This document shows positions 4,045-50,010 of a DNA stretch of 50,073 nt, in pieces. The position numbers were made by a program, and so were the translations under genes. Positions within the stretch are counted from its first letter, which is position 1. Each line of letters begins with the position of its first letter. Source of the DNA: Myxococcales bacterium (GTDB taxonomy: Bacteria > Myxococcota_A > UBA9042 > JABWCM01 > BTVJ01); the NCBI GenBank assembly GCA_045863395.1, contig BTVJ01000055.1, forward strand, positions 1 through 50,073. Reading direction: 5' to 3'. A model generated the notes under the pieces. That model saw only the letters and a list, made by a program, of their open reading frames with translations. It was not told the origin of the DNA and did no database searches.

Positions 4045-4046
4045 CG

Positions 4047-27173: not shown

Positions 27174-28163
27174 CTATAGATGCTGGACCGTGGTCGCGTC
27201 GCAGAGCGCAGACTCCATGGCTGCGGGGAGGCGTGGGTCCAGCACCAGCCGCTCCTGCTCCAGCCAGAGACCCCGTGCCGCCAGGTCACGCACCAGGTCC
27301 GGGGCGTCGCTGAGGTCGAGGTCCGGGGGCCAGTCGCGGGGGCGGGCGTCGGGGAGGTGCTCGCGCCAGAACGGGGGGACCAGCCAGCGCAGGGCGGGGT
27401 GGTGCTCCCGCAGGTGGCGGACGATACGGATGCCGTTCGGGTCCAGGTCGCCGAAGTGCAGGGTGGGGGCCTTCACCAGGGAGAGGAGGCGCCGGGCCGT
27501 CGCCGTGTTCCAGCCGGGGACGTGGACCAGCATGAAGCCGGGCGGGCGCGGCATGTCGCGCCACGCGCCCAAATTCTCGACGGTGACGACGGCCCGGAGC
27601 GGGCCCTCCAGGGTCAGGCCGTCGCGCAAGGCGCGGTCGGAGATGACCACCTCGTCGAGGATGGCCGCCACAGTGTCGAGCGCGAGGGTGCGTTGCCCCC
27701 GTCGGGCGATGACGCCCTCGGCGGGGCGGATGCGGAGCGCGCCGTCGTCGACAATCTCACGAGAGCCGAGGGTGCCGAGGCGCGCGGCGGTCAGAGTCGC
27801 CTTGGCGCCCGGTGCGGTGGCTGCGGCCGCCGTCCTGCGGTTGAGGCGGGCAGGCAGGGCGGGCAGGGAGGCGGACCGCCGGGCGTCCTCAAGGGTTGCC
27901 CAGCCCGCCGGGGTGGGCGCGACGCCAGCCTCCAACATCTCAACGTGGTCTGCACCCCAGGTCGGCCAGACCCGGTCGAGCAGGGCGACCAGGTCCGCGC
28001 GGCGCTCGGTGACGAGGGTGACCTCGTCTCTCCGGCCGGACGCTCGCGTCCACGACAGCTCCGCGAGCCAGTCGAAGGCGCCTCGTTGAGAGTCGCGCCG
28101 CTTCAGCGTGCCCCGGGTCAGCAGCTCCAGGAGCGCCAGTCGGTCCTCAGGGCGCTCCCACAA
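27174..28163 (-). CDS. Wadjet JetD/MksG-like TOPRIM nuclease (DUF2220-like)
   Basis: VVTVENLGAW (catalytic Glu), HVPGWN, LHFGDLDPNGIRI (DxD), WLEQE; TTG start overlaps the mukB 3' end by 17 bp. Confidence 0.8.
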   Translation of the reverse strand: MWERPEDRLALLELLTRGTLKRRDSQRGAFDWLAELSWTRASGRRDEVTLVTERRADLVALLDRVWPTWGADHVEMLEAGVAPTPAGWATLEDARRSASLPALPARLNRRTAAAATAPGAKATLTAARLGTLGSREIVDDGALRIRPAEGVIARRGQRTLALDTVAAILDEVVISDRALRDGLTLEGPLRAVVTVENLGAWRDMPRPPGFMLVHVPGWNTATARRLLSLVKAPTLHFGDLDPNGIRIVRHLREHHPALRWLVPPFWREHLPDARPRDWPPDLDLSDAPDLVRDLAARGLWLEQERLVLDPRLPAAMESALCDATTVQHL

Positions 28164-31100
28164 GCTCCGCCTCCGTGACGACCCGGCGGCCGCTGACCCT
28201 GACCTCCTCGCGGCCGCCCTCGCCGCGGGTGCGCACCAGGCGGAACACCGTGCAGCCCTCGGCGCGGGCCACCTCCGGAGAGGCGACGAGGAGCTGGAGG
28301 TCGAGGCTGCGGCAGAGATCGAAGAGGGTGCCGAGGTTGGCCTGGTCGAGGCGGTTCGCCTCGTCGAGGAACAGGAAGCGCAGGCTGCCGAGCGTGCGCT
28401 TGCCCCGCAGCAGCGTGGCGTCGCGCTCCCACTCGGTGAGCACCACCATCATGAGGGCGGCGCCGACGCCGATGGCCTCGCCGGTGGACAGGCGCGTCGG
28501 GTTGGCCTCCTCCCAGTCCGCTGAGCCCTGGCGCAGCACCTCCACGTGGAGGCGGATGTACTCGCGGTAGTCCAGCAGGCGCTGGCCGCCCGTGCGGCCG
28601 CCGCCGTAGCGCTTGAAGATGGCCTCCAGCGCGTCCTCGACGGGGACGTCCGCCTGGAAGAGGAGCCCCTGCGCCTCGCCCGACCGCAGCGCGCGGAGCA
28701 CCTGCTCCATCTCGGCGACGCGCTGCATGCGGACGCGGATGCCGCGGACGCTCCCGAAGCGGACGCCCCCCAGGTGGTCGCTGAGGCGGCGCACGCGGCC
28801 CTGCGCCTTCCTGATCTGTACGTCGATGCCGCGGGCGACGTCCTCGCTGGTGCCGCGCAGGTCGCGCTCCTGGCGGTCGAGCCGCTCCACGAGGCCCACG
28901 AGGTGGTCCCGGAAGCGCGCCAGGGCCAACAAGGGCTCTGCCACGTCGGCGATCTGCGCCGGGAGGCGCGAGCGCAGCCAGTCGCGGACCAGCAGCCACG
29001 CGCAGAGATAGCCCTCGCCGGTCTGGCCCGCGTCGAGGCACTTGCGCACCTCCGCGAGGAGGGCCGGGCCGCCATGTGCTGCCTCCAGGCGAACGACGAG
29101 CACGTCGCGGCGCCCGAGGGCGGCGGCAAAGAGGCTGACGCTGCTCCCCTCGAGCACGGGCGGTGCGGCCTGGAGCAGCCCCGCCGCCTCCACCTGGGGG
29201 CGAAGCCGGTCCCAGGCGTCCAGGGCCGGGCGCGCCTGCCTGCGCTCGTCCTCCTCCGTGGTGCGGGCGCTGGCCGCGTCCCGCTCTGCCGCTTCTCGCG
29301 CGGACTCGCACCGGCCGACCTCGTGCTGGAGGCGACCCACCGTGGCCTCCGCAGCGGTGAGGGCGGCTCGGGAGGCCGCCTCGGCCGCCTGCGCCTCCGC
29401 CAGCAGCTCGCCGGTGGGGTCCACGCCCGACTCGGCCAACCGCTGGCGGGCCTCGTCGTGGCTGGCGCTGGCGTTCGCGTGCCTCGCGTCCGCCTCGATG
29501 GAGGCCCCCGTCGCGGCGTCCCGTGCGCTGCGAGCCGCCCTCTCTGCGCTCTGGGCCCGGTCGAAGCGCTCCTTCGCGGCGTCGAGCTGCTCCTTGAGCG
29601 CGGGGACGAGGTCCTGGCTCTCCTCCAGGCGGGCCGCCGCGTCCGTCCAGCGGAGCTCTTCGCGGTGGGCCGCCACGTAGCGAAGCGCTTCGGCGGCCTC
29701 GCCGAGCGCGTCCCGGCGGGCGTCGAGGGCCGCGCGGCGGGTCGTGGCCTCCGTCACGTCGGCGTCGGACCAGGGGGGGTGGCGCAGCGCCTCCAGGTGG
29801 CGCTCCAGGGTCGCCGGCGCGTCGCCAGCGCGGGCCAGCTCCCGCGCGGCGTGCTCCGCGGCCACCATCGCCTCGCGGAGCGCGAGGGCCCGCGCCTCCA
29901 GGTCCGGCGGGTCGAGCAGCGCCGCGTCCGGGAGCAGCTCTCGCAGCGCCCGGTGTCTTGGACGCAGGGCGGCCGCCTCGGCCTGTGCCTGTGCGAGATC
30001 CACCTGCGCAGCCCGCCCCGCCGCCTCGGCTGCTCTCGCGGCCCTCCGGGCGCCCTCCACGTCCGGAGCGCCGGCCAGCCACAAGGCCGCTCCCTCGAGG
30101 AGCGCGTCCCCTTCCCGCAGCAGGGCCGCTGCGCTTCGCTCCGCCTCGCGCGCCTCCTCGATCTCTCCCGCCAGGGCGTCCGCCTCGGTCCGCAGCTCTG
30201 CGGCGCGGCGCTCCCGGGCGGCTCGCCCCAGGGTCGGGCGTTCAGGAACGCGCGTGATCCGCCGGGCGTCGCCCTCGTCCACGACCACGTCGCGGCCGGA
30301 GCGCCCGGTCTCCCGCGCCTCCGGGAGCGCCGCGTCCTCGGCCACCAGCCACACCGTGGGGAGGGAGGCGGCGCGCCCGGCGGCTCGGGTGGTGGCCGCG
30401 TCCAGGTCCGGAACGATCAGTGCATGCGCCAGGGGGCCGAGCAGCGCCTCCAGCTCCGCCGCCTCGTCGCCGGCCTCGTCGAAGTGGACGGCCAGCAGCT
30501 CGGCGGTCAGCTCGTCGCGCAGCGCGAGGAGCTCCGGAGGCCACGTGCCGCCGCTCAGCAGCGCCCGGGACTCGGTGAGCAGCGACTCGCGGCGGGCCGT
30601 CAGGGAGGCAGAGAGCGCTCGCGCTGTGGTCAGGCGCTCCACCAGGGCCGCGCGCGCCGCGTCGAGGGAGGGGCGGTCCACGACCGGCGCCCCCGCACCG
30701 CTGAGCAGGGCCGCCCGGGCCGCCAGGTCTCGATGAGCCGCCGCTCGAGCCTCCAGGGTATGGATCTCGACATGCCTGGTTTCCAGCATGCGGGTCGCCT
30801 CCACATGGGCCGCTGCGGCGGACCGGGCGCGCTCCTCCGCGGCCCCGAGGGCCGCCTCCACGGCCCCGAGGGCCGCCCCGAGCGCGTCGCGGCTGGCCTC
30901 CCCGGGGATCAGGCCCAGGGCGCGCTCCCGGACCCGGGCCTGCCGGCGCGCCTCCGCCTCCGCCGCGCGCAGCTCCTCCCGGAGCGCGGGTCGCCCCGCC
31001 AGCTCACGCCACGCCCGCACCTCGGCCAGCGCGGCGCGGGCCGCGTGCAGCGGTTCCACAGGGCGCGCGGCGGCTCCCTGAGCGTTCCCCGCGATGGCCG

Positions 31101-32523
31101 CCAAGGCCGCGAGCGCGGCGCCGTGCTCGGCGCGGTGGGCGGCGGCGTCGTCGATCCGGCGTGAGAGGTCCCGCCGCTCGGCGTCCACCGCCGCCTGCTC
31201 CGCTGCCGCGTCACCCGCCCGCGCTCCGGCGTCGTCCGGCTCCAGCAGCGGGTCGAAGCGCCGCGCCTCTGCGAGGCGCTCCGTGGTGCGCCGGTGGCCG
31301 GCGGCCCGCCTGTGCAGCTCGTCGAGGCCCCGCTGGAGGTCGGCGAGGCCCGCGGCGGCGCGCTCCCGCGCCTCGCTGGCGCCGTCCAGCTCCCGCGCGG
31401 CCGCCCTGTGCTTGTCCTCAGATTCAGTGCGGCGCTCCCGCGCGCGCACACGCTCCTCCTCCGCGCGGGCCAGCGCCCCCGCCCTCCGCTCCGCCTCCCG
31501 CGCCCAGCCCAGCGCCTCGGCGACCCGGCGCGCCCACGCCTCTGCGTCCGCGACGGCCTGCGCCGCCCCGGCCTTGCCCTCCACGGCCTCCGCGAGCGCC
31601 GCCCGCGTCGAGGCGAGGGCCTGCGCCGCCGCCGCCGCCGCGTCCTCTGCGCCCTGCCGGCGCTCCTCCGCGTCCCGGACCCGGCGCGCCATCTCCTCCG
31701 CGCGCAGACGCGTCGCGGCGAGGGCGGCGGCAAACATCTGCTCGCCCGCCTCGTGGATGGCGCCTATCTCCCGCTCCAGCCGCTGCGCCTCCTGCACGTC
31801 GCGGCGCGTGCGTCGGCACGTGTCCAGGTTGGCGCGCATGCGCTGGAGCGTCTCGGCGAGGCCGCCCTCCTCCCGCAGCAGGAAGGACCGCAGGTCCTGG
31901 AGCAGCCCCTTGGACATGCCCCCCGTCATGCTCGTCTTGAGCATCTCGTTGAGCTTGCTGCGCTCCTCGTCGGTGCCGAGGCGCATGGGCGTGATGCCCA
32001 GCTCGAAGAGCGCCCCGAAGTACTCGCGCGCCGAGGGAAACACCTGCAGGCGCGCCCCGAGTCGTGCCACGCGGTCCCGCAGCTCGGAGAGCTCCGGCAC
32101 GTGCTCAAGCTCCCCGCTGGCGATGAGCAGCAGGTCCTGGAGGCGGATGTCTGGCGCGAGCCCCGTGACCAGGAAGGGCGTGGGCTCGACGGTGGGCTCC
32201 CCCTTGCGCTCCAGGTGGACGCCGGCGAGCACGCGCTCGCCCCGCACCCCAAACTCCAGCGCCGCGTAGGACGGGCGCCCCAGCTCCCCGAGGCGCCCCC
32301 AGATGCCTTTGTCGCCGCCGGTGGCGCCGGTCTCGCCGAGGTTCGTGAAGCGGAGGCGCGTCATGTCGGGCAGGAGCACCACGTAGGCCGCGACCATCAC
32401 CGTGGTCTTGCCGGCGCCGTTGTCGCCCTCCAGGGCGGTCACGTGGCGGTCGAGCTCGTAGCGCTCGTAGAAGACGCCCTTCCAGTTGACGAGGGCGAGG
32501 GCCTGGGCGCGGACGCGGCTCAC
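28147..32523 (-). CDS. mukB: Chromosome partition ATPase MukB (1458 aa)
   Basis: LVNWKGVF, Walker A GDNGAGKTT, long coiled coils, hinge LLGPLAHALIVPDL, LLDYREY, signature LSTGEAIG, Walker B FLFLDEANRLD, QLLVASPE. Confidence 0.93.
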   Translation of the reverse strand: MSRVRAQALALVNWKGVFYERYELDRHVTALEGDNGAGKTTVMVAAYVVLLPDMTRLRFTNLGETGATGGDKGIWGRLGELGRPSYAALEFGVRGERVLAGVHLERKGEPTVEPTPFLVTGLAPDIRLQDLLLIASGELEHVPELSELRDRVARLGARLQVFPSAREYFGALFELGITPMRLGTDEERSKLNEMLKTSMTGGMSKGLLQDLRSFLLREEGGLAETLQRMRANLDTCRRTRRDVQEAQRLEREIGAIHEAGEQMFAAALAATRLRAEEMARRVRDAEERRQGAEDAAAAAAQALASTRAALAEAVEGKAGAAQAVADAEAWARRVAEALGWAREAERRAGALARAEEERVRARERRTESEDKHRAAARELDGASEARERAAAGLADLQRGLDELHRRAAGHRRTTERLAEARRFDPLLEPDDAGARAGDAAAEQAAVDAERRDLSRRIDDAAAHRAEHGAALAALAAIAGNAQGAAARPVEPLHAARAALAEVRAWRELAGRPALREELRAAEAEARRQARVRERALGLIPGEASRDALGAALGAVEAALGAAEERARSAAAAHVEATRMLETRHVEIHTLEARAAAHRDLAARAALLSGAGAPVVDRPSLDAARAALVERLTTARALSASLTARRESLLTESRALLSGGTWPPELLALRDELTAELLAVHFDEAGDEAAELEALLGPLAHALIVPDLDAATTRAAGRAASLPTVWLVAEDAALPEARETGRSGRDVVVDEGDARRITRVPERPTLGRAARERRAAELRTEADALAGEIEEAREAERSAAALLREGDALLEGAALWLAGAPDVEGARRAARAAEAAGRAAQVDLAQAQAEAAALRPRHRALRELLPDAALLDPPDLEARALALREAMVAAEHAARELARAGDAPATLERHLEALRHPPWSDADVTEATTRRAALDARRDALGEAAEALRYVAAHREELRWTDAAARLEESQDLVPALKEQLDAAKERFDRAQSAERAARSARDAATGASIEADARHANASASHDEARQRLAESGVDPTGELLAEAQAAEAASRAALTAAEATVGRLQHEVGRCESAREAAERDAASARTTEEDERRQARPALDAWDRLRPQVEAAGLLQAAPPVLEGSSVSLFAAALGRRDVLVVRLEAAHGGPALLAEVRKCLDAGQTGEGYLCAWLLVRDWLRSRLPAQIADVAEPLLALARFRDHLVGLVERLDRQERDLRGTSEDVARGIDVQIRKAQGRVRRLSDHLGGVRFGSVRGIRVRMQRVAEMEQVLRALRSGEAQGLLFQADVPVEDALEAIFKRYGGGRTGGQRLLDYREYIRLHVEVLRQGSADWEEANPTRLSTGEAIGVGAALMMVVLTEWERDATLLRGKRTLGSLRFLFLDEANRLDQANLGTLFDLCRSLDLQLLVASPEVARAEGCTVFRLVRTRGEGGREEVRVSGRRVVTEAELVGAP

Positions 32524-33158
32524 GGCTCGTCCCCCTCGTCGGTCTCGGGCACCTCGATCTCGCCGAGCGCGATGAGCCGCTCCAGGGCCGCCGCCGGGTC
32601 TGCGGCGGCGCGGGCGGGCTCGGCGAAGCGCATGAGAGCCGGGCGCAGGCGGAGCCGCTCCCCGTCGACGTCCACGAAGCCGAGGTCGGTGAGCCCCCGC
32701 AGCGCGGCCGCCAGCTCCTTGCGCACATTCTCGGCGGCGACCCGCTCGTCCCGGCCCCGGCGGCGGTTCAGGGAGCGGAGCAGGTTGTCCTGGCCCACGA
32801 TGCCCGCGAGGCGCCGGAGCACCTCTTCTCGTTCCACCACGCCCCCCTCTTCGAGCGTCGCCGGGTCGAGGTAGAGCAGGGCGAGGGTCTGCCCCACGAG
32901 CATCTCGCCGGCGGTGAGCTGGCGCCGCCCGAGCCGGTCACCGCGCGGGAGCAGGTAGAAGTAGCCGTCGCTCTTGTGGACCAGCTCGGCGCCGAAGCGC
33001 CGGTAGAAGGGCTCCAGGTGGTCCAGGGCGTCCACGAGGAACGTGTACGCGGCGTCGTCCTCCCGCCCGACGTGGCGCCCGCGGCGGAGCAGGAGGTCCA
33101 CCTCGGGGAACAGGTCGTCGAGGATCGCGTCCTCCAGACGATGGTAGGACGAGCTCAC
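32520..33158 (-). CDS. mukE: MukE KITE subunit
   Basis: LFPEVDLLLRRGRHV, FYRRFGAELV..DGYFYLLPR, EMLVGQTLALLYLDP, LMRF; GTG start overlaps the mukF stop. Confidence 0.9.
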   Translation of the reverse strand: MSSSYHRLEDAILDDLFPEVDLLLRRGRHVGREDDAAYTFLVDALDHLEPFYRRFGAELVHKSDGYFYLLPRGDRLGRRQLTAGEMLVGQTLALLYLDPATLEEGGVVEREEVLRRLAGIVGQDNLLRSLNRRRGRDERVAAENVRKELAAALRGLTDLGFVDVDGERLRLRPALMRFAEPARAAADPAAALERLIALGEIEVPETDEGDEP

Positions 33159-34480
33159 GCGCGCTCCTGGCGGGTGATCGCCCACTGCTCGATCTCGAGG
33201 CCCGCAGCCGCTGCTCCCACGGGGACCCACGGCCGCTCCCGCTCGGACCGGGGCCGGGCGAGGCGCGCGACCAGCGCCGCCACCTGTCCCGCCGCCCCGA
33301 AACGACGCTCCGGCGACAGCGCCGCGAGGACCCGCGCCGTCACCTCCGAGAGGGTCGCAGCGGCGTCGTCGAGGGCCGCGCTGACCAGCGCGTCCAGGGG
33401 AAGGTCGCCCGCCGCGAGCTCCTCGGGCGGCAGCTCCCGGTTCACCCGCGCGCGCACCACCGGTGGGCGCTCCACGTCGCGGCTCGCGTCCCGGAGGAGG
33501 CGGATGCCGGGGGCGCGCGTCGCGGTCAGGTGGAACGGCCGCGAACTCCACCCGGCGAGCTGATCGCGAAGCCGCTGCGACAGCGCCCGGTCGGGGTCGA
33601 GGCGCACCACGTCCCGCAGGTACCGGTGAACGTATTGATAATAGTCGGACCAGGCGCGCTGGCGGGCGTCGCCCCACACGGCGACGCGGTCGACGTGCTC
33701 GGTCACCCGCTGGGCGGCGTCCTGGGCCGCCGTCATTCCCGCCGCCTCGGCGAGGTCGTGGATCTCCTGCAAGAGCGCCGCGAACTGGTGCGTGTCCCGC
33801 AGCAGCACCTCGTTGAGCTCCGCGAGGGTGGCGGTCGTGGTGTCGAGGAGCGTCTGGGCGTCGTCGACGGCGCCGAACCAGTCCGCCTGGAGGAGCCCGG
33901 CGATGTCCTTGCGGACCTGCTCCTGCGCGACATCGAGGCCTCGCTGGCGCCGCTCGATGCCGGCCACCAGGTCCCCCACCGTGACCCGGAGGGGGCCGAC
34001 GACATGCGCGGTCCACGCTTCTTCATCGCTGGCCCGCGCCGCGGCGCCCCGAATCTCGGCGAGCTGTCCGAGCAGCGTCCGGGTGAGCAGGGTCAGGCTC
34101 TCGCGGGTGAGGGCGTCGTCCGCCAGGAAATACTCGACGACCGCGGCCGCGAGCCGCGTCAGGGTGTACTCTCCCGCTCGCACGATGCCCGCGCCGTCCA
34201 CCCGGGCGAGCATCCGCTGGTCGCGGAGCCTCTGGACGGCGTGCGTCGCCCGCTTGCGGGGATTCTCTGCCCCAGGATCGACCATGTCGCAGACCTGCTC
34301 GAACAGGTCAATCAGCGCGTCGTCCCCAAAAGAAGCCAGCGCGTCGCGGTCTGCCCGCAGGTAGAGCCCCGCAAGGCAGCACAGGTCGAAGGTGGTCAGA
34401 TCGAGGCTCACCCGGTCACGAGACAGGGCGGCGACGAGCGTGTTCGGGTCGGTCCGGCGGTCGAGCATGTGGTCCCGCAT
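33155..34480 (-). CDS. mukF: MukF kleisin (about 441 aa; alternative start 34468)
   Basis: RATHAVQRLRDQRML, YTLTRLA, IERRQRGLDVAQEQVRKDIAGLLQADW, VHRYLRDVVRLDPDRALSQRLR. Confidence 0.9.
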   Translation of the reverse strand: MRDHMLDRRTDPNTLVAALSRDRVSLDLTTFDLCCLAGLYLRADRDALASFGDDALIDLFEQVCDMVDPGAENPRKRATHAVQRLRDQRMLARVDGAGIVRAGEYTLTRLAAAVVEYFLADDALTRESLTLLTRTLLGQLAEIRGAAARASDEEAWTAHVVGPLRVTVGDLVAGIERRQRGLDVAQEQVRKDIAGLLQADWFGAVDDAQTLLDTTTATLAELNEVLLRDTHQFAALLQEIHDLAEAAGMTAAQDAAQRVTEHVDRVAVWGDARQRAWSDYYQYVHRYLRDVVRLDPDRALSQRLRDQLAGWSSRPFHLTATRAPGIRLLRDASRDVERPPVVRARVNRELPPEELAAGDLPLDALVSAALDDAAATLSEVTARVLAALSPERRFGAAGQVAALVARLARPRSERERPWVPVGAAAAGLEIEQWAITRQERA

Positions 34481-34489
34481 TCCGGGCAG

Positions 34490-37400
34490 CTACGGCGCCG
34501 GCAGCAGCTCTTCGCGCCCGATGGCGCCCTCGGCGACCTCGGAGACGGTGAACCGCATGGGCAGAGTCTCGTTGGCGAGCCACAGGACGAGCTGATCGTG
34601 GAAGTGGGGGCTGCTCGTCAGCCCCGACTGCCCGCCCGGGATGATGTTGCGCCCCTCCACCTTGCCGCCGCCGAGCGCCACGACCATGCGCATGACGGGC
34701 CCGCTCCCGTGGGTGAAGGTCTTGCCGTTGAGGCCGGAGTTTGCGGCGTCCACCGCGTCCTGGTCGCCGTGGCGGGGGAACCACCGGAGGCCCTTGCGGG
34801 GGTCGCCGGCGGGCAGGGACTCCGCCAGCGGGAGCTTCTTCGTGTCGATGCTGAACAGATCCGCGATGAAGGCGTAGTCCGAACCCGCATCGAAGAACTC
34901 GGCGAGGATGGACTCGAAGCGGGCCTGGTGGCGGAGACCCCAGAGCCACTTGCCCATGTCGGTTGTGCCGAATCCGCCCGTGTCCGAGGTGGCCGGGGCG
35001 CTCCGGAGATGGTCGAGGGCCTCGATGAGCGAGAGGAGCATGATCTCGTCGCTGCGCTCCAGCTCCGGTGTCTGGAGCACGTCGAAGAAGATGGACTCCT
35101 CCGTCTCGTCGTGCCAGGAGGCCAGCTCGCGTGGGTTGTCGGGGCCTCGGCCGTCGAGCATGTACAACAGGGTGCGGATGCGCCCGTCGTTGCCGCCCGG
35201 GCGCCACACGCCGGGGAGCCCCTCGTCGTCGAAGGTGCGCTTCATCATGGCGCCTATCCAGGCGTTGAAGATCATGGTCGCTACCGAGGCGTCCGCGTCC
35301 CCCTCCGCCGGCTTGGAGTAGAAGGTCTCGACGCCCGAGCGCGCCTCGTATCCAAGGCCTGCCCACGTGGTCAGCCGCTGCTCCACCTCGGTCAGCGCCG
35401 CGTCGCTCTCGTACAAGGTCGCGAGCCGCGCCTCGTGCTCCGGCAGCAGGCCCCCCACCTGGGTCAGCGCCCGCGCCTTCTGGATGGCGCCGACGAGGTA
35501 CGGCGCGAACATCTGCCCCAGCCGGGACCGGGCGTTGGCCTGGATGCGCTGCATGGCGTCCAGGTCCGCCGTGCCCGCCGCGATGGCCGCCTTCAGCTCG
35601 CCCGAGATGGTATCCATGCGGATGCCCGCGTCGAAGGGGCCGCCGATGTACCACGGGTCGTTGCTCAGGTCCTTGTCGAAGGTCATGCCCGCCGGGTCGT
35701 TGTTGGCGTTGGCCAGGAAGCCCTGCGCCGGGTCGGTCTCCGCCGGGTAGGCGGCGAAGGGCACGATGCAGCGAGAGGGGTCGGCCTTACCCGGGGCCTC
35801 GTCGTTCTTGCCGTCCTTCATGGGGACCTGGAAGCCGCCGTACTTGGTGCCGTCCAGCAGGAAGCTCGGGTCGGCCCCGGCGACCCAGCGCCCCTGCTCG
35901 TCGCGCTCCAGCCCGCTGCGGCAGGGCACCCCTTGATACCCGCTGTAGAAGATGCTGCCCGCCTGGTCCGAGGCGACGAAGTTCTGCGTGTAGGCGTTGA
36001 GGCCGCGCATGGCCTCGTGGAACTCGCCGACGTCCGCCGCGTGGCCCATGGCGTCGATGGCGCCCGCGAAGCCCATGGAGTCGAGACCCGTGTAGTCGAA
36101 GCTGATGGCGCTGACCTTGCCGTCGCCGTCCTGGTCGCCCGGCACGATGAGGTCGCCGCCCAGGTCGATCAGCGCCTCGCCAGGGGCCAGCTCCTCGTCC
36201 TTCTTGGCCTCTCTGCCCTCCACCTCGGCGATCCACCGGCCGTCGAACGTGGTCCAGCGGGTGACGGTGACCGTCCCGCCCTCGCTGCCGAGGAGCGGGA
36301 TGTCCGCCACCGTGTAGGACTCCTCGTGGGCGACGAGGGGGTGCCACGCGCCTTTGAACCGGGACGCGGCAGGCAGACCGTCCGCGAGCTGGAGCTCCTC
36401 CGCGTACCAGTCCGTGATGTCACCCGACTGCTGGGTGTGGCTCCACGCGACCTGGCCGTTGGTGCCGAGGCCCACCATGGGGAGCCCGGGGATGGTCAGG
36501 CCCAGCAGGTGGGTGTCGCCGCCCCCGAGGACCGACGTGTCGAGGCCCGCCTGGATCAGGAAGGACGGCACGGACAGGGACAGGTGGCCGTCCCCGGCCA
36601 GCAGGGAGCGCCCGTCGCTGGAGGAGCTGCCCGCCACCGCCCACGCGTTGGAGCCGAAGCCCTCGTCCAGATCGCGGCGGAAGGGGACGATCCACCGCTC
36701 CAGGCGCGCGCTCAGGCGCTGGAGCAGCTCGGGCGGGACCGCAGGGGCGCCCGACATGCTCTTCGACTTCGGTGGGAGGGGCGCGACGGGGCCCGTGCCC
36801 TGCTTGCCGACCAGCCCCGGGGCGGAGGCGTGGGGGAAGATGGGCTCGATGTGGTCCCAGATGTCGACTCGGGCGCCGGTGCGGCGGAGCTCCTCGAAGG
36901 GGGCGCCGGCGAAGAGGCCGTCGAGCTGGTTGAGGGTGGCCGTGCGGCCCACGTCCCCGGTCTCGAAGCTCGCCTCGTACTGGACGACCACGATGATGCC
37001 CGCGAGGGAGAGGCGGTCGAAGGGCACCATGAGATCCGCCGGGTTGGCGGCGCCGAGCAGCGGGCCCGCCAGCTCCAGCTCCGTCGCCAGGGGGAGCTCG
37101 CCCGCCTTCACGCGCTCGATGTACGTGTTGACCCCGGCGGCGTAGGCGTCGAACACCGCGCCCAGCTCCGGGGACAGGGTCGCCGCCGTCTGCTCGGCGA
37201 TGGCGCGCTGGCCGTTGAGTCGGACCTGCATGTCGGTCTCGAGGGCGGCGTCGCCCAGGAGCTCCGACAGGGTGCCGAGGCCCAGGCGCCGGGCGAGGTC
37301 CATCATGAACCAGCGGTCCCGCGCCGAGACGAAGCCGAAGGCGAAGGCCAGGTCCTCGCGGGTGGCGGCGTAGATGTGGGGCACGTTGGCCTCGGTGCGC

Positions 37401-37747
37401 ACCACCTGGACCGGGGCGCTCAGGCCCTCGAAGGTCCAGGTCTCCGTCGCGGGGATGGCGAGGAGGCGCTCCGGGTCCGTGAGGGAGGTGTCCGGGGGCG
37501 TGGAGGTGTCGGTGGTGTCCAGCGTTGTCGCGTCGCCGGCATCGCTCGCGTCAGCGGCGACGTCGGAGCCGGAGTCCGTGGCTAGGGCCGTGTCGCCCGC
37601 ATTCGGGGTGGCGCTGTCGGCCGCCGAGGCTCCGTCCGTCAGCGGGGCGCCGCCTGCGTCCTGCGCGGGGTCCGAGTCGTCGGCGCAGCCGCCCAGCGCG
37701 GCCATCAGGGCTAGGAGGCGGGCCAGCCCGCGCGTCGTGTCTCTCAT
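34490..37747 (-). CDS. Penicillin acylase family (Ntn hydrolase, S45) lipoprotein
   Basis: Lipobox-like LMAALGGC; acidic linker; VPHIYA..FGFVSARDRWFMMDL; G|SNAWAV nucleophile; GDGHL; NANND; PGGQSG. Confidence 0.92.
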   Translation of the reverse strand: MRDTTRGLARLLALMAALGGCADDSDPAQDAGGAPLTDGASAADSATPNAGDTALATDSGSDVAADASDAGDATTLDTTDTSTPPDTSLTDPERLLAIPATETWTFEGLSAPVQVVRTEANVPHIYAATREDLAFAFGFVSARDRWFMMDLARRLGLGTLSELLGDAALETDMQVRLNGQRAIAEQTAATLSPELGAVFDAYAAGVNTYIERVKAGELPLATELELAGPLLGAANPADLMVPFDRLSLAGIIVVVQYEASFETGDVGRTATLNQLDGLFAGAPFEELRRTGARVDIWDHIEPIFPHASAPGLVGKQGTGPVAPLPPKSKSMSGAPAVPPELLQRLSARLERWIVPFRRDLDEGFGSNAWAVAGSSSSDGRSLLAGDGHLSLSVPSFLIQAGLDTSVLGGGDTHLLGLTIPGLPMVGLGTNGQVAWSHTQQSGDITDWYAEELQLADGLPAASRFKGAWHPLVAHEESYTVADIPLLGSEGGTVTVTRWTTFDGRWIAEVEGREAKKDEELAPGEALIDLGGDLIVPGDQDGDGKVSAISFDYTGLDSMGFAGAIDAMGHAADVGEFHEAMRGLNAYTQNFVASDQAGSIFYSGYQGVPCRSGLERDEQGRWVAGADPSFLLDGTKYGGFQVPMKDGKNDEAPGKADPSRCIVPFAAYPAETDPAQGFLANANNDPAGMTFDKDLSNDPWYIGGPFDAGIRMDTISGELKAAIAAGTADLDAMQRIQANARSRLGQMFAPYLVGAIQKARALTQVGGLLPEHEARLATLYESDAALTEVEQRLTTWAGLGYEARSGVETFYSKPAEGDADASVATMIFNAWIGAMMKRTFDDEGLPGVWRPGGNDGRIRTLLYMLDGRGPDNPRELASWHDETEESIFFDVLQTPELERSDEIMLLSLIEALDHLRSAPATSDTGGFGTTDMGKWLWGLRHQARFESILAEFFDAGSDYAFIADLFSIDTKKLPLAESLPAGDPRKGLRWFPRHGDQDAVDAANSGLNGKTFTHGSGPVMRMVVALGGGKVEGRNIIPGGQSGLTSSPHFHDQLVLWLANETLPMRFTVSEVAEGAIGREELLPAP

Positions 37748-37884
37748 GGGTGCCTCTCGGTGCGAGTCGGGCGTCACCGTAGCAGATGCCCGCGCGGCCG
37801 ACCAGACGGTTTCCCCCTGGCCGGATCTGTGCTTCCATGGCGCGTCCCGACGACGGGGCCGGGCGCTCACCAGGGAGGTCACCG

Positions 37885-39456
37885 ATGCTTCGACCCGCAC
37901 TGCTGCTTCTGGGTTGGTGGTCCGTCGCCCAGGCTGCGCCCGCCGAGCGCGAGACCATGCTCCGCGACGTGGACACGGACGCGGTGGCCGCGGCTCTGGA
38001 GCTGGGCGCGCCCCTGCCGGACGGGTCGCACCTCAGCGCCCGCATCGAGCGGGACCGGGTGCTGGTCACCGCTGGAGCCCCGGATGCGCCGGCGCTGTCC
38101 ATCGCGCTGGTGGCCGCACTGGAGGCTCCGGAGGGGACTCCGGTCGCAGCCGGGACGGCGCTGATCGCTGATCCAGGGCCGGCGCCCGGGGCGCTGGTGG
38201 CCGACGTCCTGGCGCGGCTCGGGCGCGCCCCGAGGATCCCCTGGCGCACGGTGTCCCTGTGGCGCCTGCGGGGAGGGCCCGCGGGAGAGGCGCTGGTGCA
38301 GGTCGCCCACCTCATCGAGCGGGGCGAGGTCTCCGAGGCCCGCGCAACGCTGGACGCCGTGGACCTCGCCGGCCCCCGCGAGCGCATCCGGGCGGCGGCG
38401 CTCCGCCAGCGGCTCGGGGAGCCGGAGCGGGCACGCGCCCTCCTCGACGGCGTGGAGGTGCGTGCGCCCGTCAACCGCGCCCTGGTGGCGGTGGTCTCCG
38501 GTGGGGACCCGGACCTGGCGGGCGTCGAGGCCGATCCATGCCCCTACGCGGAGGTCGCTCAGGCGCTGGCGTTCACGGGGCGACGGGAAGCCTCCCTGGC
38601 TGTCGCGAGGTCCGTGCGCACCGCGGACCCCGGGTGCGGGTCGGCGTGGGTGGCGGAGATGGAGGCGGCGCTGGCGGTCGCGGCCCCCGACGCGGCGGAC
38701 GTCGCGGCCGCGGCGGTGGCGGCGACCGACGACCCGGCGGTCATCGAGGGCGCGGCGGGCGTGTGGACGGCGACGGGGGACCCGGAGCGTGCGGTCCGCG
38801 CCCTGGAGGCGGTGGTCGGGAAGGGGCGCTACGGGCCGGCCATCCTGGTGGGGCCCTTCTGCCGCGACCGGGCGACCATGGACCGCCTGTTACCGGAGCT
38901 CGAGGCCCGCCTCGCCGACCCCGTGGACACGGTGGCGCGCTACCTGGTGGGGGTGGCCGCCCACTACCGCAACGAGTTCGAGCGCTCCAACGAGCTCCTG
39001 CTTGCCCTGGAGCGCCGGTGGCCGAAGGATCAGCGGCTCCAGATCTACGTGGCCATGAACGACTTCAACCTGGGGAACGCCAGCGCGGCGCTCCACCGCC
39101 TGAACGAGGCGGCGCGGTCACAGGTCGTGGATCTGGACGTCTTCTACTGCCGCGCCGAGGTCGTGCGCGACACGGACCCGGCGCTGGCGCTGGCGGATCT
39201 GCGGCGCACTGCCGCGCTGGCCCGCGCCCACCCGGGGCACTCACCGGAGAAGGACGCCCGCCTGGAGGAGCTGATGCGCGCCCTGGAGGGCTGCATCGCC
39301 ACCGGGGAACGCCCGTGCGGAGGCCCCTGGGAGCACCCGCGGCGACAGGGGACGGTGGAGGCGAGCGAGGTGGGTGGGCCGCCGGTCGCGGTCCTGGTGG
39401 GCCTGGGCATCGTAGCGGTGCTGGTCATCGTCGTGGCGGCGCGGCGCGCCCGGTGA
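37885..39456 (+). CDS. Exported TPR-like helical protein with C-terminal TM anchor
   Basis: Signal peptide MLRPALLLLGWWSVAQA; helical repeats; C-terminal VAVLVGLGIVAVLVIVVAARRAR. Confidence 0.7.
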   Translation: MLRPALLLLGWWSVAQAAPAERETMLRDVDTDAVAAALELGAPLPDGSHLSARIERDRVLVTAGAPDAPALSIALVAALEAPEGTPVAAGTALIADPGPAPGALVADVLARLGRAPRIPWRTVSLWRLRGGPAGEALVQVAHLIERGEVSEARATLDAVDLAGPRERIRAAALRQRLGEPERARALLDGVEVRAPVNRALVAVVSGGDPDLAGVEADPCPYAEVAQALAFTGRREASLAVARSVRTADPGCGSAWVAEMEAALAVAAPDAADVAAAAVAATDDPAVIEGAAGVWTATGDPERAVRALEAVVGKGRYGPAILVGPFCRDRATMDRLLPELEARLADPVDTVARYLVGVAAHYRNEFERSNELLLALERRWPKDQRLQIYVAMNDFNLGNASAALHRLNEAARSQVVDLDVFYCRAEVVRDTDPALALADLRRTAALARAHPGHSPEKDARLEELMRALEGCIATGERPCGGPWEHPRRQGTVEASEVGGPPVAVLVGLGIVAVLVIVVAARRAR

Positions 39457-47195: not shown

Positions 47196-47403
47196 GCGGG
47201 ACGGGGGAGCGGGCGGCGCCAGCTTCACGCCCCCGGCGCGGTGGCTTGCCAGGCACCGGACGTCCCGCCCTGGGCGGCCTTCGGGGACGTCCGGACCGCG
47301 GTGAGCCCCACCACGAGAGGCGCCGCGGCCAGCGAATCTGGCCGCGCGCGCCGCTCGAGTTCCATGTATGATTGGCGCCACCTTCAGCCTCGACAGGTGC
47401 GCC

Positions 47404-50010
47404 ATGCGTAGTGCCGTTCTGGTCCTCTGTGTGCTGCTCCCTCACGTTGCGTCTGCTCTTGAGCGCGTCATCACCGTCCAGGGGGCCGTGCTGACCAGCG
47501 CGGGGGCGCCGTCCGCCGGGGATCACTCCGTCGTGTTGCGCCTGTTCGCTGCGCAGAGCGGGGGCTCCCCGGTCTACGAGCAGTCCTTCGGTACCGTCTC
47601 CCTGGCGGGTGGGGTCTTCGATCTGGCGCTGGGGCCGCTCCCGTCTGGCGTCGCCGTGGACGAGTCCGCGCTGTGGCTGGAGGCGGTCGTCGACGGGCAG
47701 GCGCTCCCTCGCGGGCCCCTCCGCCCCGTGCCCTTCACGCTCGTGGCCGAGCGGGCGACCGTCGCTGGCGATGTGACGTGTGCGGGCTGCGTGTCTGCGG
47801 CGGAGGTGGGCTTCCCCTACGCCCACGCTTCCTCCAAAGGAGGAGCCGCCACGGGCCTCGACTGTACCGGTTGCGTGACGGCAGGGGTGCTCGGAGCGGG
47901 TGCCGTCGGGACCGCACACCTGCAGGACGGCGCCGTCACCGCGGGGAAGGTGGGGTTCCCCTGGGCCGCGGCCGCCAGCGCCGGCGGGCTGGCCCTCGGT
48001 GTGAGCTGCACGGGCTGCATCGGACCTGGACACCTCGCGGCGAACCTGGCGCTGCAAGGCGACGTGACCGTCGGCGGGACGCTCGCCGCGTGCACTGCGG
48101 GCGCGCCCGGCTGCACCCTCAAGGTGGGGGCCCAGGCGGTGACGCCTTCGGCTGATGGCTGGATGCACCTTCAAGCCACGAGCGGCGTGCGGGTACGCAG
48201 CGCCGACGGCTCCGCCTACCGGCCGCTGGCCTTCGGGGGCGGCCAGTCCTGGGGCAGCCTGACCATCGACGGCGACGCTGGCGTCAGCGGAGCCCTGTCC
48301 GTCGGCACCCTCGCCCTGGACCCCGACGCGACGCTGCTCGTGGCGGGCGCGGTCGCCACGGGGGGGCTGGTCTCGCCGCCGGGTGCGCCCCTGACCCTGA
48401 CTCAGCGCGGGAGCGCTGCGGACGTCCTCGTGGCCAGCGAAGCCGCTGGTGAGCTCGTGCGTGTGAAGGGCTCTTCGGGCCGCGTGGGCATCGGCACCGC
48501 CAGTCCACAGGCGACGCTCGACGTGGCGGGCGGCGTGCGCGTCGGCGCCGACGCGGGGGCCTGCACGCCCGACCGCCCGGGTACGTTGCGGTGGTCCTCG
48601 GGCCTCGAGGTCTGCGACGGGCAGGCGTGGCGCCCCGTCCACCAGCCGGCGCAGACCGGTGCCAGCAAGGGGGACGCGGCGCGCTCGTGCCGTGTGCTGA
48701 AGGACTCGCTCCCGGGCAAGCCGAGCGGCATGTACTGGCTGGACCCTGACGGCGGCTCGACGGACAACGCCTTCTTCGGGTACTGCGACATGACCACCGA
48801 TGGCGGCGGGTGGCTGCTCGTCAGCACGCAGAAGCCCGACGGCAACTTCTGGTCGGTCGCGGCCACGGCGAGCGTAGTGCTCGACAAGACGGTCAGCCAG
48901 AAGTACGCACCGTCCGTCCTGTCGGCGTTCGCCTCCATGGGTGCGTACCGCGTCATGGTCGAGGAGAACTCAGGCGTGGACGTCACGAACGGTGCGGTCA
49001 TGGTCTACCGCATGCCCCAAGGAGTCGCGCTGCGCTTCGACGGCCAGAACGTCGCAATCAACACGCTGGAGTGGTGGACGGGCACGGGCTTCGCCCCCGT
49101 GTCCAACAACGCGGGCGGCAACTGGTGGGGCATCTCCGTGCACGGCGACGCCTTCGGCGGCCTGGCGAGCAACAAGCGCTGCGTCCTCAAGTCCAACCAC
49201 GCGACCGGTGTGGGCACCAACGGCGACTACAAGCTCGACCACCAGGGCACCCACGCGGGCACGACGCGCTGCTTTCACGGCAACGTCGGGATCGGCGTGG
49301 CTCACTGGGTGCGCGAAGAGGCAACCGGGGGCCCAGCGGTCCCCGACGGCACCTCGGTCGCCAACGCGGGTCAGACGTGCAAGTCGATCAAAGCGGACGG
49401 CTACTCGACCGGCACCGGCTACTACTGGCTGGACCCTGACGGCGGCTCCACGAGTAACGCGTTCTTCGGCTACTGCGACATGACGACCGACGGTGGTGGG
49501 TGGCTGCTGGTCAGCACGCAGAAGCCGGACGGCAACCTGGCGTCCAGTGGCCCCGTGGCGTCGGTGACCTACAACACGGGGGCAAACCAGAAGTACGCGC
49601 AGTCCGTTCTGAACGCGCTCGCTGCCCTGGGCCAGTACCAGGTCATGGTGGAGGAGAACCAGGGCCTGGACGTCAACTCGGGCCTCGTCATGGTCTACCG
49701 CATGCCGCAGAGCGTGGCGCTCCGCTTCGACGGCGGCAACGTCGCCCTGTCCCAGGTTCAGTGGTTCATCGGCGGGTCGAGCTACTACACGGTCACAAAC
49801 AACGCGGGCGGCAACTGGTGGGGCATCTCCGTCCACGGCGACGCCTTCAACGGCTTGCCCACGGGCAGCCGCTGCGTGAGCAAGGCGACCTTCCAGGCGG
49901 GCGGCGGCAACAACGGCGACTACAAGCTCGACCACCTGGGCACCCACTCGGGCACGACGCGCTGCACCCATGGAACCGTCGGAATCGGTGTCACGCACTG
50001 GGTGAGATGA
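47404..50010 (+). CDS. Exported mosaic fibre/adhesin-like protein with two fibrinogen-like (YCDxxxxGGGW) domains
   Basis: Signal peptide; three CxGC units; GRVGIGTASPQATLDVAG; GTLRW..EVCDG..W; two copies of YWLDPDG..YCDMTTDGGGWLLV. Confidence 0.85.
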   Translation: MRSAVLVLCVLLPHVASALERVITVQGAVLTSAGAPSAGDHSVVLRLFAAQSGGSPVYEQSFGTVSLAGGVFDLALGPLPSGVAVDESALWLEAVVDGQALPRGPLRPVPFTLVAERATVAGDVTCAGCVSAAEVGFPYAHASSKGGAATGLDCTGCVTAGVLGAGAVGTAHLQDGAVTAGKVGFPWAAAASAGGLALGVSCTGCIGPGHLAANLALQGDVTVGGTLAACTAGAPGCTLKVGAQAVTPSADGWMHLQATSGVRVRSADGSAYRPLAFGGGQSWGSLTIDGDAGVSGALSVGTLALDPDATLLVAGAVATGGLVSPPGAPLTLTQRGSAADVLVASEAAGELVRVKGSSGRVGIGTASPQATLDVAGGVRVGADAGACTPDRPGTLRWSSGLEVCDGQAWRPVHQPAQTGASKGDAARSCRVLKDSLPGKPSGMYWLDPDGGSTDNAFFGYCDMTTDGGGWLLVSTQKPDGNFWSVAATASVVLDKTVSQKYAPSVLSAFASMGAYRVMVEENSGVDVTNGAVMVYRMPQGVALRFDGQNVAINTLEWWTGTGFAPVSNNAGGNWWGISVHGDAFGGLASNKRCVLKSNHATGVGTNGDYKLDHQGTHAGTTRCFHGNVGIGVAHWVREEATGGPAVPDGTSVANAGQTCKSIKADGYSTGTGYYWLDPDGGSTSNAFFGYCDMTTDGGGWLLVSTQKPDGNLASSGPVASVTYNTGANQKYAQSVLNALAALGQYQVMVEENQGLDVNSGLVMVYRMPQSVALRFDGGNVALSQVQWFIGGSSYYTVTNNAGGNWWGISVHGDAFNGLPTGSRCVSKATFQAGGGNNGDYKLDHLGTHSGTTRCTHGTVGIGVTHWVR
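48650..50007 (+). repeat. Intragenic tandem duplication, 690-bp period (boundaries approximate)
   Basis: tactggctggaccctgacggcggctc at 48733 and 49423; both protein halves end in GIGVxHWVR. Confidence 0.85.

What the first reader, a model, noticed from the sequence alone, without database searches (positions are those of the whole stretch)
27174..34480. E. coli-type MukFEB condensin coupled to a Wadjet JetD-like nuclease: candidate MukBEF-based anti-plasmid system
Seen: four overlapping minus-strand genes, mukF (about 441 aa), mukE (about 212), mukB (1458) and a 329-aa TOPRIM protein with intact VEN, GDLD and LEQE motifs. The SMC carries MukB-specific text (LVNWKGVF; LSTGEAIG..LRGK..LFLDEA.RLD) and full MukB length. 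No smtA/cmoM gene lies upstream. Known: gammaproteobacterial MukBEF is a housekeeping condensin without a nuclease. Wadjet (JetABCD/MksBEFG) has the same gene order plus a TOPRIM nuclease that cuts circular plasmids, but its SMC subunits are divergent from MukB. Inference: this is a nuclease-armed MukBEF, either an unclassified Wadjet subtype or an evolutionary intermediate between Wadjet and housekeeping MukBEF. I cannot verify from here that it is unreported.
Basis: partly seen in the sequence, partly recalled or inferred. Interest (0 to 1): 0.9.

Follow-up and report, generated by a model that had tools for sequence, protein, structure and literature searches.

The report
MukBEF-like Wadjet operon with short nuclease
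An uncultured myxobacterium carries four overlapping genes that join close relatives of the E. coli chromosome-folding proteins MukF, MukE and MukB to a JetD/MksG-type DNA-cutting enzyme, most likely a plasmid-defence machine from a little-studied branch that a 2025 survey already lists.

Summary
Four overlapping minus-strand genes encode MukF-like (441 aa), MukE-like (212), MukB-like (1458) and a 329-aa JetD/MksG-fold Toprim protein.

The first three score as Muk proteins. MukB passes NCBI's equivalog cut-off (905 against 699 bits). PDB sequence hits are MukB/F/E only. PADLOC's Wadjet models miss the kleisin and KITE.

The fourth protein models at pLDDT 94.7 and matches MksG best (Z 16.8). 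Its E...DxD metal site is invariant in 33 relatives.

The four-gene order recurs widely: 72 of 77 assessable loci from Myxococcota, Pseudomonas, Planctomycetota and other phyla. Within lineages the system is rare (2 of 41 genomes of the host's class). Nine of nine other carriers tested also keep Smc. So it is an accessory, horizontally moving system, most likely a Wadjet-type plasmid restriction machine.

It is not unreported. Bürmann et al. 2025 (Data S1) list the Sorangium members as 'FEBG' Wadjet-group operons. This scan also met the same kind on other DNA (e1-2505140, e1-2506158, e1-2499642, e1-2500758, e1-2659234). No experiment on the branch was found in the searches run.

My tree cannot tell whether E. 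coli MukB is sister to this branch or nested in it (AU p 0.56).

Side note: the host genome and its class lack a canonical Smc.

The parts
33155..34480 (-). mukF-like kleisin gene (441 aa, P0001)
   Evidence: NCBIfam MukF NF003615 scores 353.5 bits over residues 8-436 of a 440-position model (cut-off 407). Pfam gives MukF_M 77.7, KicB 34.5 and MukF_C 23.9 bits. PDB sequence hits are MukF only, 7nyw_C at 4e-34. No PADLOC JetA hit.
32520..33158 (-). mukE-like KITE gene (212 aa, P0002); 4-nt overlap with mukF and with mukB
   Evidence: Pfam MukE 120.1 bits and MksE 117.7 bits. NCBIfam MukE 122.3 bits (cut-off 250). PDB hits are MukE only, about 1e-30. No PADLOC JetB hit.
28147..32523 (-). mukB-like SMC ATPase gene (1458 aa, P0003) with Walker A GDNGAGKT, signature LSTGEAIG and Walker B LFLDEA
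   Evidence: NCBIfam MukB equivalog NF003422 scores 904.9 bits against a cut-off of 699, aligned over residues 2-1451. Pfam MukB_N 250.4 and MukB_hinge 106.8 bits. PDB hits are MukB only, 9gm6_A at 8.5e-100. PADLOC JetC1 matches only the P-loop (31 bits); JetC2 scores 19.8 bits.
27174..28163 (-). short JetD/MksG-like nuclease gene (329 aa, P0004; TTG start, 17-nt overlap with mukB): N-terminal helical/winged-helix part, CAP-like middle part, C-terminal Toprim
   Evidence: Pfam JetD_C 38.8 bits for residues 184-258. PADLOC JetD1 reaches at most 32.8 bits. The AF2 model has pLDDT 94.7. Foldseek best hits are MksG 8b7f at 1.2e-9 and JetD 7til at 9e-8. VIA-align gives MksG Z 16.8 (254 aligned, model 1-322) and Topo VI-A Z 16.3 (model 95-326). 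E196, N197, D239, D241 and E304 are invariant in 33 relatives, and there is no invariant Tyr.

Best explanation
This is an accessory, horizontally spread Wadjet/MksBEFG-type plasmid restriction system. Its motor is built from MukF-, MukE- and MukB-like subunits of MukBEF size, and its executing subunit is a shortened JetD/MksG-type Toprim nuclease.

Inferred mechanism, by analogy with type I and II Wadjet: the MukB-like dimer, bridged by the MukF-like kleisin and the MukE-like KITE dimer, loads on DNA and extrudes loops with ATP. On small circular DNA the two motors run into each other and stall. The JetD-like dimer is then recruited or activated and cuts the trapped DNA with its metal-dependent Toprim site.

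What is shown here: gene identities, fold, conserved catalytic residues, operon conservation, patchy distribution, and co-occurrence with Smc in other hosts. What is inferred: ATP-dependent extrusion, plasmid specificity and cleavage.
For: (1) Identities.
- The MukB equivalog scores above its cut-off. MukF and MukE align full length. PDB hits are Muk entries only.

(2) The nuclease.
- The model is confident (pLDDT 94.7).
- The best structural matches are C. glutamicum MksG and P. aeruginosa JetD, then Topo VI-A and Spo11.
- The family profile hits the MksG Toprim at 1.6e-6.
- The E...DxD metal site is invariant across 33 relatives of 25-52% identity. No invariant tyrosine is present, which fits a hydrolytic nuclease rather than a topoisomerase.

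(3) Linkage.
- The MukB-like C-terminus lies directly before the nuclease gene in 72 of 77 loci with at least 500 nt upstream.
- F, E and B are all detected in 47 of 61 loci with at least 6.6 kb upstream.
- Full-length MukB-like ORFs occur in 50 of the 80 loci.

(4) Accessory and mobile character.
- The system is present in 2 of 41 genomes of the host's class.
- It was found only in the centre genome in samples of 301 and 201 overlapping genomes of the class that holds G044 and G346 (NCBI titles: Pseudomonadales, Stutzerimonas stutzeri), and in 61 genomes of another order.
- The tree mixes phyla, for example Myxococcales next to Stutzerimonas.
- 9 of 9 other carriers tested keep a canonical Smc above the cut-off.

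(5) Enteric mukB loci.
- 79 enteric mukB loci have no such fourth gene.

(6) Prior listing.
- The same family is catalogued as 'FEBG' in the Wadjet group (Bürmann et al. 2025, Data S1).
Against: - No experiment on any member of this branch was found in the searches listed under Tried and rejected.
- PADLOC Wadjet models do not recognise the kleisin or KITE, and only marginally the SMC and nuclease. Membership of types I-III is therefore not met.
- The locus sits among nucleotide-biosynthesis genes (guaB, guaA, carB, purF-like, purB-like). No integrase, transposase or other defence gene is in the 50-kb window.
- The host genome has no canonical Smc-ScpAB. A chromosomal role here cannot be excluded.
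- The nuclease is about 40-60 residues shorter than the solved JetD and MksG chains (365-374 residues). How it docks on the motor is unknown.
Confidence: 0.72

Rival explanations
1. Dual-use or housekeeping condensin. In this Smc-less myxobacterium the MukBEF-like complex folds and segregates the chromosome, as MukBEF does in E. coli. The nuclease is an add-on, or is held inactive on the large chromosome.
For: - G000 is 97.4% complete and has no Smc, ScpA or SMC hinge.
- Five real Smc proteins used as tblastn queries find nothing better than 50 bits.
- The neighbourhood is housekeeping genes.
- The literature itself proposes that Wadjet may also extrude chromosomal DNA (Liu et al. 2022 preprint, passages read).
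Against: - 39 of the 41 genomes of the same class lack this operon, and none of the 41 reaches the Smc cut-off. The class therefore manages without both.
- A different 930-aa JetC1/MksB-like SMC (P0275) is present in G000 and in 16 of 41 class genomes. It is the better candidate for housekeeping.
- 9 of 9 other carriers tested keep Smc.
Confidence: 0.1
2. Defence against, or processing of, DNA other than small circular plasmids (phage genomes, integrative elements, linear replicons). The motor is the same, but its longer MukB-type arms and shortened nuclease give a different target rule.
For: - The SMC arms are MukB-length: 1458-1486 aa here, against 1320-1369 aa for the two type II JetC proteins fetched and 1097-1361 positions in the PADLOC JetC profiles.
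- The nuclease N-terminal part diverges from JetD: only the Toprim half aligns to 7til.
- Myxobacteria such as Sorangium carry up to two copies.
Against: All tested Wadjet types so far act on circular DNA by extrusion and cleavage (2025 type II preprint, passages read). Nothing in the sequence points to another target.
Confidence: 0.1
3. A topology-managing enzyme. The CAP plus Toprim protein works like Topo VI-A or Spo11, with a covalent, resealable break, on DNA held by the condensin.
For: Structural similarity to Topo VI-A is nearly as high as to MksG: Z 16.3 against 16.8, covering CAP and Toprim.
Against: No tyrosine is invariant in 33 family members. There is no Topo VI-B-like ATPase partner in the operon. 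[quoted passage not shown]
Confidence: 0.03

Closest known systems
'FEBG' Wadjet-group operons of Sorangium cellulosum So ce56 (8010124-8017521) and So0157-2 (5495869-5503452) in Data S1 of Bürmann et al. 2025, Cell (PMC7617805)
   Same: Same family. My loci L056 and L093 are these operons. Their proteins are 46-68% identical to the window's four proteins in the same order. The MukB-like genes are 4.4 kb and the nuclease genes 969-993 nt. By size alone, MukB-sized FEBG entries with mksG of about 950-980 nt are also listed for Bradymonas sediminis, Vibrio parahaemolyticus, V. natriegens and Shewanella sp..
   Different: A different host: an uncultured Myxococcota lineage without a canonical Smc. 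The paper lists these operons but, in the text, figure legends and supplement text that I read, neither describes nor tests this branch. Its tree figure and tree file were not readable here.
MukBEF of E. coli / Photorhabdus thracensis (housekeeping condensin)
   Same: - Subunit order F-E-B with overlapping genes.
- Near-identical lengths: MukF 441 against the 440-residue MukF chains in the PDB; MukB-like 1458-1486 against 1486.
- The MukB equivalog model is passed.
- MukB-type hinge and N-terminal domains.
- Only Muk entries are hit in the PDB.
   Different: - Carries a fourth nuclease gene, which E. coli K-12 and 78 enteric metagenome mukB loci lack.
- No cmoM upstream.
- MatP and SeqA not found in the genome.
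- Only 32-38% identity in head plus hinge.
- Patchy rather than lineage-wide distribution.
Wadjet / JetABCD / MksBEFG types I-III (E. coli GF4-3 and P. aeruginosa PA14 type I, C. glutamicum MksBEFG, Neobacillus vireti type II)
   Same: Four-gene kleisin-KITE-SMC-nuclease architecture. The nuclease has the JetD/MksG fold (N-terminal part, CAP, Toprim) with the same acidic metal site. The distribution is accessory and patchy.
   Different: - PADLOC JetA and JetB models give no hit. JetC1 matches only the P-loop, JetC2 scores 19.8 bits, and JetD1 reaches at most 33 bits.
- Head plus hinge identity to two type II JetC proteins is 22-25%.
- The SMC is about 100-350 residues longer than the JetC proteins and profiles compared.
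- The nuclease is 329 aa against the 365-374-residue solved JetD/MksG chains, and only its Toprim half superposes on P. aeruginosa JetD.

Membership tests
Canonical MukBEF (gammaproteobacterial housekeeping condensin) | MukB, MukF and MukE orthologues by curated equivalog models | tested here: inconclusive
   MukB scores 904.9 bits, above its 699 cut-off. MukF scores 353.5, below 407. MukE scores 122.3, below 250.
Canonical MukBEF (gammaproteobacterial housekeeping condensin) | Three-gene operon without a nuclease, typically preceded by cmoM/smtA | tested here: not met
   A fourth JetD-like gene overlaps the end of mukB. The upstream gene is a penicillin amidase. E. coli K-12 has cmoM-mukFEB-ldtD.
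Canonical MukBEF (gammaproteobacterial housekeeping condensin) | Co-occurring partners MatP and SeqA; Dam (the set itself is recalled, not from a call) | tested here: not met
   Pfam MatP and SeqA give no match in G000 (97.4% complete), while both ring in the E. coli control. Dam was not tested.
Canonical MukBEF (gammaproteobacterial housekeeping condensin) | Lineage-wide vertical presence, replacing Smc-ScpAB | tested here: not met
   Present in 2 of 41 genomes of the host's class. 9 of 9 other carriers tested keep Smc. G000 itself lacks Smc, but so do the 39 class genomes without the operon.
Wadjet group in the wide sense (MksBEFG / FEBG operons, Bürmann et al. 2025) | Co-directional kleisin, KITE and MukB-like SMC genes with a flanking MksG/JetD nuclease gene | tested here: met
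   Gene order F-E-B-G with overlaps. Close relatives (L056, L093) are listed as FEBG in Data S1.
Wadjet types I, II, III as modelled in PADLOC-DB v2 | All four proteins recognised by the JetA/B/C/D profiles of one type | tested here: not met
   JetA and JetB give 0 families at E <= 0.01. JetC1 scores 31 bits on residues 9-59 only, JetC2 19.8 bits, and JetD1 16-33 bits on the Toprim core. DefenseFinder models could not be run.
JetD/MksG nuclease family | N-terminal arm/CAP part plus C-terminal Toprim with conserved acidic metal-binding residues | tested here: met
   Pfam JetD_C 38.8 bits, above the 22 cut-off. VIA-align against MksG gives Z 16.8 over model residues 1-322. Foldseek gives 8b7f at 1.2e-9 and 7til at 9e-8. 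E196, D239 and D241 are invariant.
JetD/MksG nuclease family | ATP- and motor-dependent cleavage of circular DNA | not testable with these tools
   Needs biochemistry or plasmid-restriction assays.

The most novel reading that the evidence does not exclude
This FEBG branch is the living remnant of the nuclease-armed ancestor from which gammaproteobacterial MukBEF was domesticated. Canonical MukB would then arise from within the branch by loss of the short JetD-like gene. In that case the members in culturable Pseudomonas, Stutzerimonas and Sorangium would make the origin of MukBEF experimentally testable. Possible tests: does removing the nuclease turn the complex into a condensin, and can it replace mukFEB in E. 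coli?

In the present host, which has no Smc-ScpAB, the complex might already serve both roles.
Probability: 0.3. Interest if true: 0.7.

Novelty: new member of a known kind. Interest (0 to 1): 0.45.

Why it matters
Several papers propose that MukBEF descends from a Wadjet-like plasmid-defence system by loss of its nuclease (Liu et al. 2022 preprint; the 2023 review PMC10586767; the 2025 type II preprint; passages read). A branch whose three motor subunits are collinear with MukF, MukE and MukB, yet still carries an intact JetD-type nuclease, is the natural material for testing that idea. It would also show how a MukB-length motor measures and cuts DNA.

The branch occurs in culturable strains: Sorangium cellulosum, Pseudomonas lini, P. 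ulcerans and Stutzerimonas stutzeri TS44. PADLOC's Wadjet profiles do not recognise two of its four proteins, and NCBI's MukB equivalog model accepts its SMC. Automatic annotation is therefore likely to call it a chromosome-partition operon.

For this particular window the result is mostly confirmatory: a further member of a branch that is already catalogued.

Tried and rejected
- Complex prediction of the MukE-like alignment (A3) with the nuclease alignment (A1) returned 'no answer' (score 0.00). It counts neither for nor against binding.

- The search for related loci with the 33-row alignment failed because no stretch was conserved enough. I repeated it with 11 closer rows.

- I tried to collect diverse true MukB sequences to break the long E. 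coli branch.
  - Samples of 301, 201 and 61 genomes around G044, G346 and G045 held no MukB_N other than in the centre genome.
  - A metagenome scan with E. coli MukB gave only 80-100% identical enteric copies.
  - The tree therefore has one canonical MukB lineage, and its placement is unresolved.
  - BLAST scores of E. coli MukF, MukE and MukB against the family single out no sub-branch.

- The tree file of Bürmann et al. was cut when stored and could not be read. Their figures are not held.

- Type I JetC outgroups: only one partial JetC1-like gene with a stop was found in 41 relatives, and none in 5 carriers. The tree's Wadjet outgroup is therefore type II only (L188, L189).

- Insertion test by synteny: the homologue of the downstream 701-aa gene in the nearest genome (G001) lies on a 16-kb contig without guaA or the amidase. 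Nothing can be concluded.

- Transcription.
  - Contigs from three RNA-library runs of two studies cover the whole operon.
  - They cover the flanking genes on both strands equally, at similar depth.
  - These are contigs, not reads. DNA carry-over cannot be excluded, and no transcript ends or strand can be seen.

- Literature.
  - Full-text searches were 'MukBEF + Wadjet + JetD' (20 papers), 'MukBEF / MksG / domestication' (18 papers) and four spellings of 'Wadjet type IV' (0 papers).
  - None of the six papers opened for passages or sections (Bürmann 2025; the 2022, 2023 and 2025 preprints; the 2023 review; the MksG paper) describes this branch in the parts read. The rest were seen only as listings.
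  - Petrushenko et al. 2011 (PMC3179180) is not held and may bear on priority.

- ScpB and Dam were not searched.
Full report
**Observation.** The window is a whole 50,073-bp contig (C55) of an 8.77-Mb, 70.9% G+C genome in 186 contigs, 97.4% complete. On the minus strand, four ORFs overlap by 4, 4 and 17 nt:

| Coordinates | Length |
|---|---|
| 33155-34480 | 441 aa |
| 32520-33158 | 212 aa |
| 28147-32523 | 1458 aa |
| 27174-28163 | 329 aa |

GC3 of the four ORFs checked this way is 0.90-0.93, like their neighbours.

**Identities of the first three genes.**
- Pfam: MukF_M, KicB and a weak MukF_C on the first protein; MukE (120 bits) and MksE (118) on the second; MukB N-terminal (250 bits) and MukB hinge (107) on the third.
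- NCBIfam's MukB equivalog model is passed: 904.9 bits against a cut-off of 699, aligned end to end.
- MukF aligns over its full length but stays below the cut-off (353.5 against 407). MukE is well below (122 against 250).
- PADLOC's Wadjet models do not see the kleisin or the KITE at E <= 0.01. They touch the SMC only at its P-loop (JetC1, 31 bits) or weakly (JetC2, 19.8 bits).
- Against all PDB sequences the three proteins hit only MukB, MukF and MukE entries (8.5e-100, 4e-34 and about 6e-30). I recall that type I JetABC structures are in the PDB; this recollection comes from no call.

**The fourth gene.**
- Pfam JetD_C matches residues 184-258 (38.8 bits). NCBIfam has no model for it.
- It belongs to a distinct family of about 320-340-aa proteins. 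There were 647 hits at E <= 1e-3 among the 8000 candidates scored in the 90%-clustered collection. There were 299 representatives at E <= 1e-3 in the 50%-clustered library.
- In an alignment of 33 members (25-52% identical to the window protein), the invariant residues are K121, R177, E196, N197, G217, G238, D239, D241, G244, P263, W278 and E304. No tyrosine is invariant.
- AlphaFold2 on this alignment gives pLDDT 94.7 and pTM 0.82.
- Foldseek's best PDB matches are C. glutamicum MksG (8b7f, 1.2e-9) and P. aeruginosa JetD (7til, 9e-8), then Topo VI-A and Spo11.
- VIA-align gives MksG Z 16.8 (254 residues, model 1-322), Topo VI-A Z 16.3 (model 95-326) and JetD Z 13.8 (model 140-321 only).
- The family profile hits the MksG Toprim region at 1.6e-6 by sequence.
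- So it is a shortened JetD/MksG-type protein: an N-terminal part, a CAP-like part and a Toprim domain with an intact metal site.

**Conservation and distribution.**
- A scan of one genome per species found 87 relatives of the nuclease, of which 80 loci were kept. They come from Myxococcota (several Sorangium strains, Polyangiaceae, Nannocystaceae, Kofleriaceae), Pseudomonas lini, P. ulcerans, Stutzerimonas stutzeri TS44, other Pseudomonadota, Planctomycetota, Acidobacteriota, Binatia, spirochaete MAGs and others.
- In 72 of 77 loci with at least 500 nt upstream, the C-terminus of a MukB-like gene abuts the nuclease gene.
- By tblastn, F, E and a full B were all detected in 47 of 61 loci with at least 6.6 kb upstream. 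Several of the misses are HSP drop-outs, because full-length MukB-like ORFs of 1470-1486 aa were found in 50 of the 80 loci.
- Five loci lack an adjacent MukB-like gene (L055, L058, L059, L075, L096), and a few keep only a C-terminal fragment.
- Within lineages the system is rare. It is in 2 of 41 genomes of the host's class (G000 and G040).
- It was found only in the centre genome in evenly drawn samples of 301 and 201 overlapping genomes of the class that holds G044 and G346, and in 61 genomes of the order of G045.
- The SMC tree interleaves phyla. This is the pattern of a horizontally moving accessory system.

**Relation to condensins in the hosts.**
- Nine of nine other carriers tested have a canonical Smc above the TIGR02168 cut-off.
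- The host genome is different. It has no Smc (best 43 bits, in coiled coil), no ScpA and no SMC hinge.
- tblastn with five real Smc proteins, two of them from Sorangium, finds at best 50 bits, on another gene.
- None of 41 genomes of its class reaches the Smc cut-off, yet 39 of them also lack the Muk-like operon. The operon is therefore not the class's replacement for Smc.
- A 930-aa SMC-like protein (P0275, contig C36) scores 88 bits on PADLOC JetC1 and occurs in 16 of 41 class genomes. It is a better candidate for that role.
- MatP and SeqA were not found.
- No classical JetC1 or JetC2 was found in G000.

**Relation to MukBEF.**
- Over head plus hinge columns the family is 48-70% identical to the window's protein. 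Family members are 32-38% identical to E. coli MukB, 22-25% to two type II JetC proteins, and about 20% to Smc.
- A 33-row maximum-likelihood tree (quick search, LG+C20 PMSF) rooted on Smc places E. coli MukB inside the family, next to its most divergent members (SH-aLRT 95). E. coli is a very long branch (3.2), and the type II JetC pair joins an unresolved basal polytomy.
- The best tree with the family held together has a slightly higher likelihood (2.8 units) and is not rejected (p-AU 0.56).
- BLAST scores of E. coli MukF, MukE and MukB do not favour any sub-branch.
- I conclude only that this is the closest nuclease-bearing relative of MukBEF among what I could sample. Sister or ancestor is undecided.
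- Seventy-nine enteric mukB loci, E. coli K-12 included, have no relative of the fourth gene.

**What is known.**
- Bürmann et al. 2025 (Cell, PMC7617805) surveyed the 'Wadjet group' for operons with and without MksG. I read passages, the methods on phylogeny, the supplementary figure legends and parts of Data S1.
- They state that MukBEF 'lacks MksG/JetD'. [quoted passage not shown]
- Their Data S1 lists Sorangium cellulosum So ce56 8010124-8017521 and So0157-2 5495869-5503452 as 'FEBG'. These are my loci L056 and L093, members of the present family.
- MukB-sized FEBG entries with mksG of about 950-980 nt are also listed for Bradymonas, two Vibrio species and a Shewanella. I judged these by size only.
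- I could not see their tree.
- Three other papers (passages read) propose that MukBEF arose from a JetABCD-like ancestor by loss of the nuclease. In the passages read, none mentions a Muk-type operon that still has the nuclease.
- Searches for a 'type IV' Wadjet found nothing.
- Earlier notes of this scan describe the same kind of operon in five other genomes and cite the same dataset.

**Mechanism.**
- The best-supported reading is Wadjet-like. The ATP-driven loop-extruding dimer of MukB-like, MukF-like and MukE-like motors scans DNA. On small circles the motors stall against each other. The JetD-like dimer then cleaves with its Toprim site.
- This follows the mechanism shown for type I, and reported for type II, in the papers read.
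- Only the parts list, the fold, the conserved residues and the genomic behaviour are shown here. The activity is inferred.
- How the shortened nuclease docks is open. In E. coli JET the aCAP domain binds the JetC 'larynx'.

**Expression.**
- RNA-library contigs from two studies cover the operon, but they cover its flanks equally.
- This does not demonstrate transcription.

**Verdict.** The operon is real, intact and conserved. It is a MukBEF-like member of the Wadjet group with a short JetD/MksG nuclease. The kind is already catalogued, though it is unnamed and, as far as my searches show, untested. The window adds one more member, plus the curiosity of an Smc-less host.

Noticed in passing
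G000 contig C36:63692-66481 (minus; locus L018 7690-10482) and the whole genome: The genome (97.4% complete) and all 41 sampled genomes of its Myxococcota class lack a canonical Smc above the TIGR02168 cut-off. G000 also lacks ScpA and an SMC hinge. A 930-aa SMC-like protein (PADLOC JetC1 88 bits, Pfam SMC_N 60 bits) has two upstream ORFs of 320 and 502 aa with no significant Pfam or PADLOC match. It occurs in 16 of 41 class genomes. It may be a nuclease-free Mks-type condensin standing in for Smc-ScpAB.
   Followed up: partly
window 47368-50010 (+): An 880-aa predicted protein with Pfam matches to the fibrillar collagen C-terminal domain (COLFI, 75 bits) and to Fibrinogen_C. Both are unusual in a bacterium.
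   Followed up: no
Loci L055, L060 (Sorangium second copies), L043, L073: JetD-like genes preceded only by a C-terminal fragment of a MukB-like gene, with no MukF or MukE detected in 9 kb upstream. They look like decayed or rearranged copies of the system.
   Followed up: no
Proteins P0181 (1052 aa) and P0220 (975 aa): The short JetD-like domain lies at the C-terminus of much longer proteins (matches at residues 758-1038 and 686-965). These are possible fusions or read-through gene calls.
   Followed up: no
window 6637-10548 (-) and 1369-4161 (-): A 1303-aa AAA_16 plus TPR (STAND-like) protein and a 930-aa VIT-VWA protein lie in the same contig. Otherwise the contig is dominated by nucleotide-biosynthesis genes: carB, guaB, guaA, purF-like, purB-like and a deoxynucleoside kinase.
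   Followed up: no
window 34481-34489: Only 9 nt separate the stop of the upstream penicillin-amidase gene (34490-37900, minus) from the mukF-like start. The operon may therefore be co-transcribed with an unrelated gene. RNA-library contigs bridge the junction, but contigs cannot show a single transcript.
   Followed up: partly
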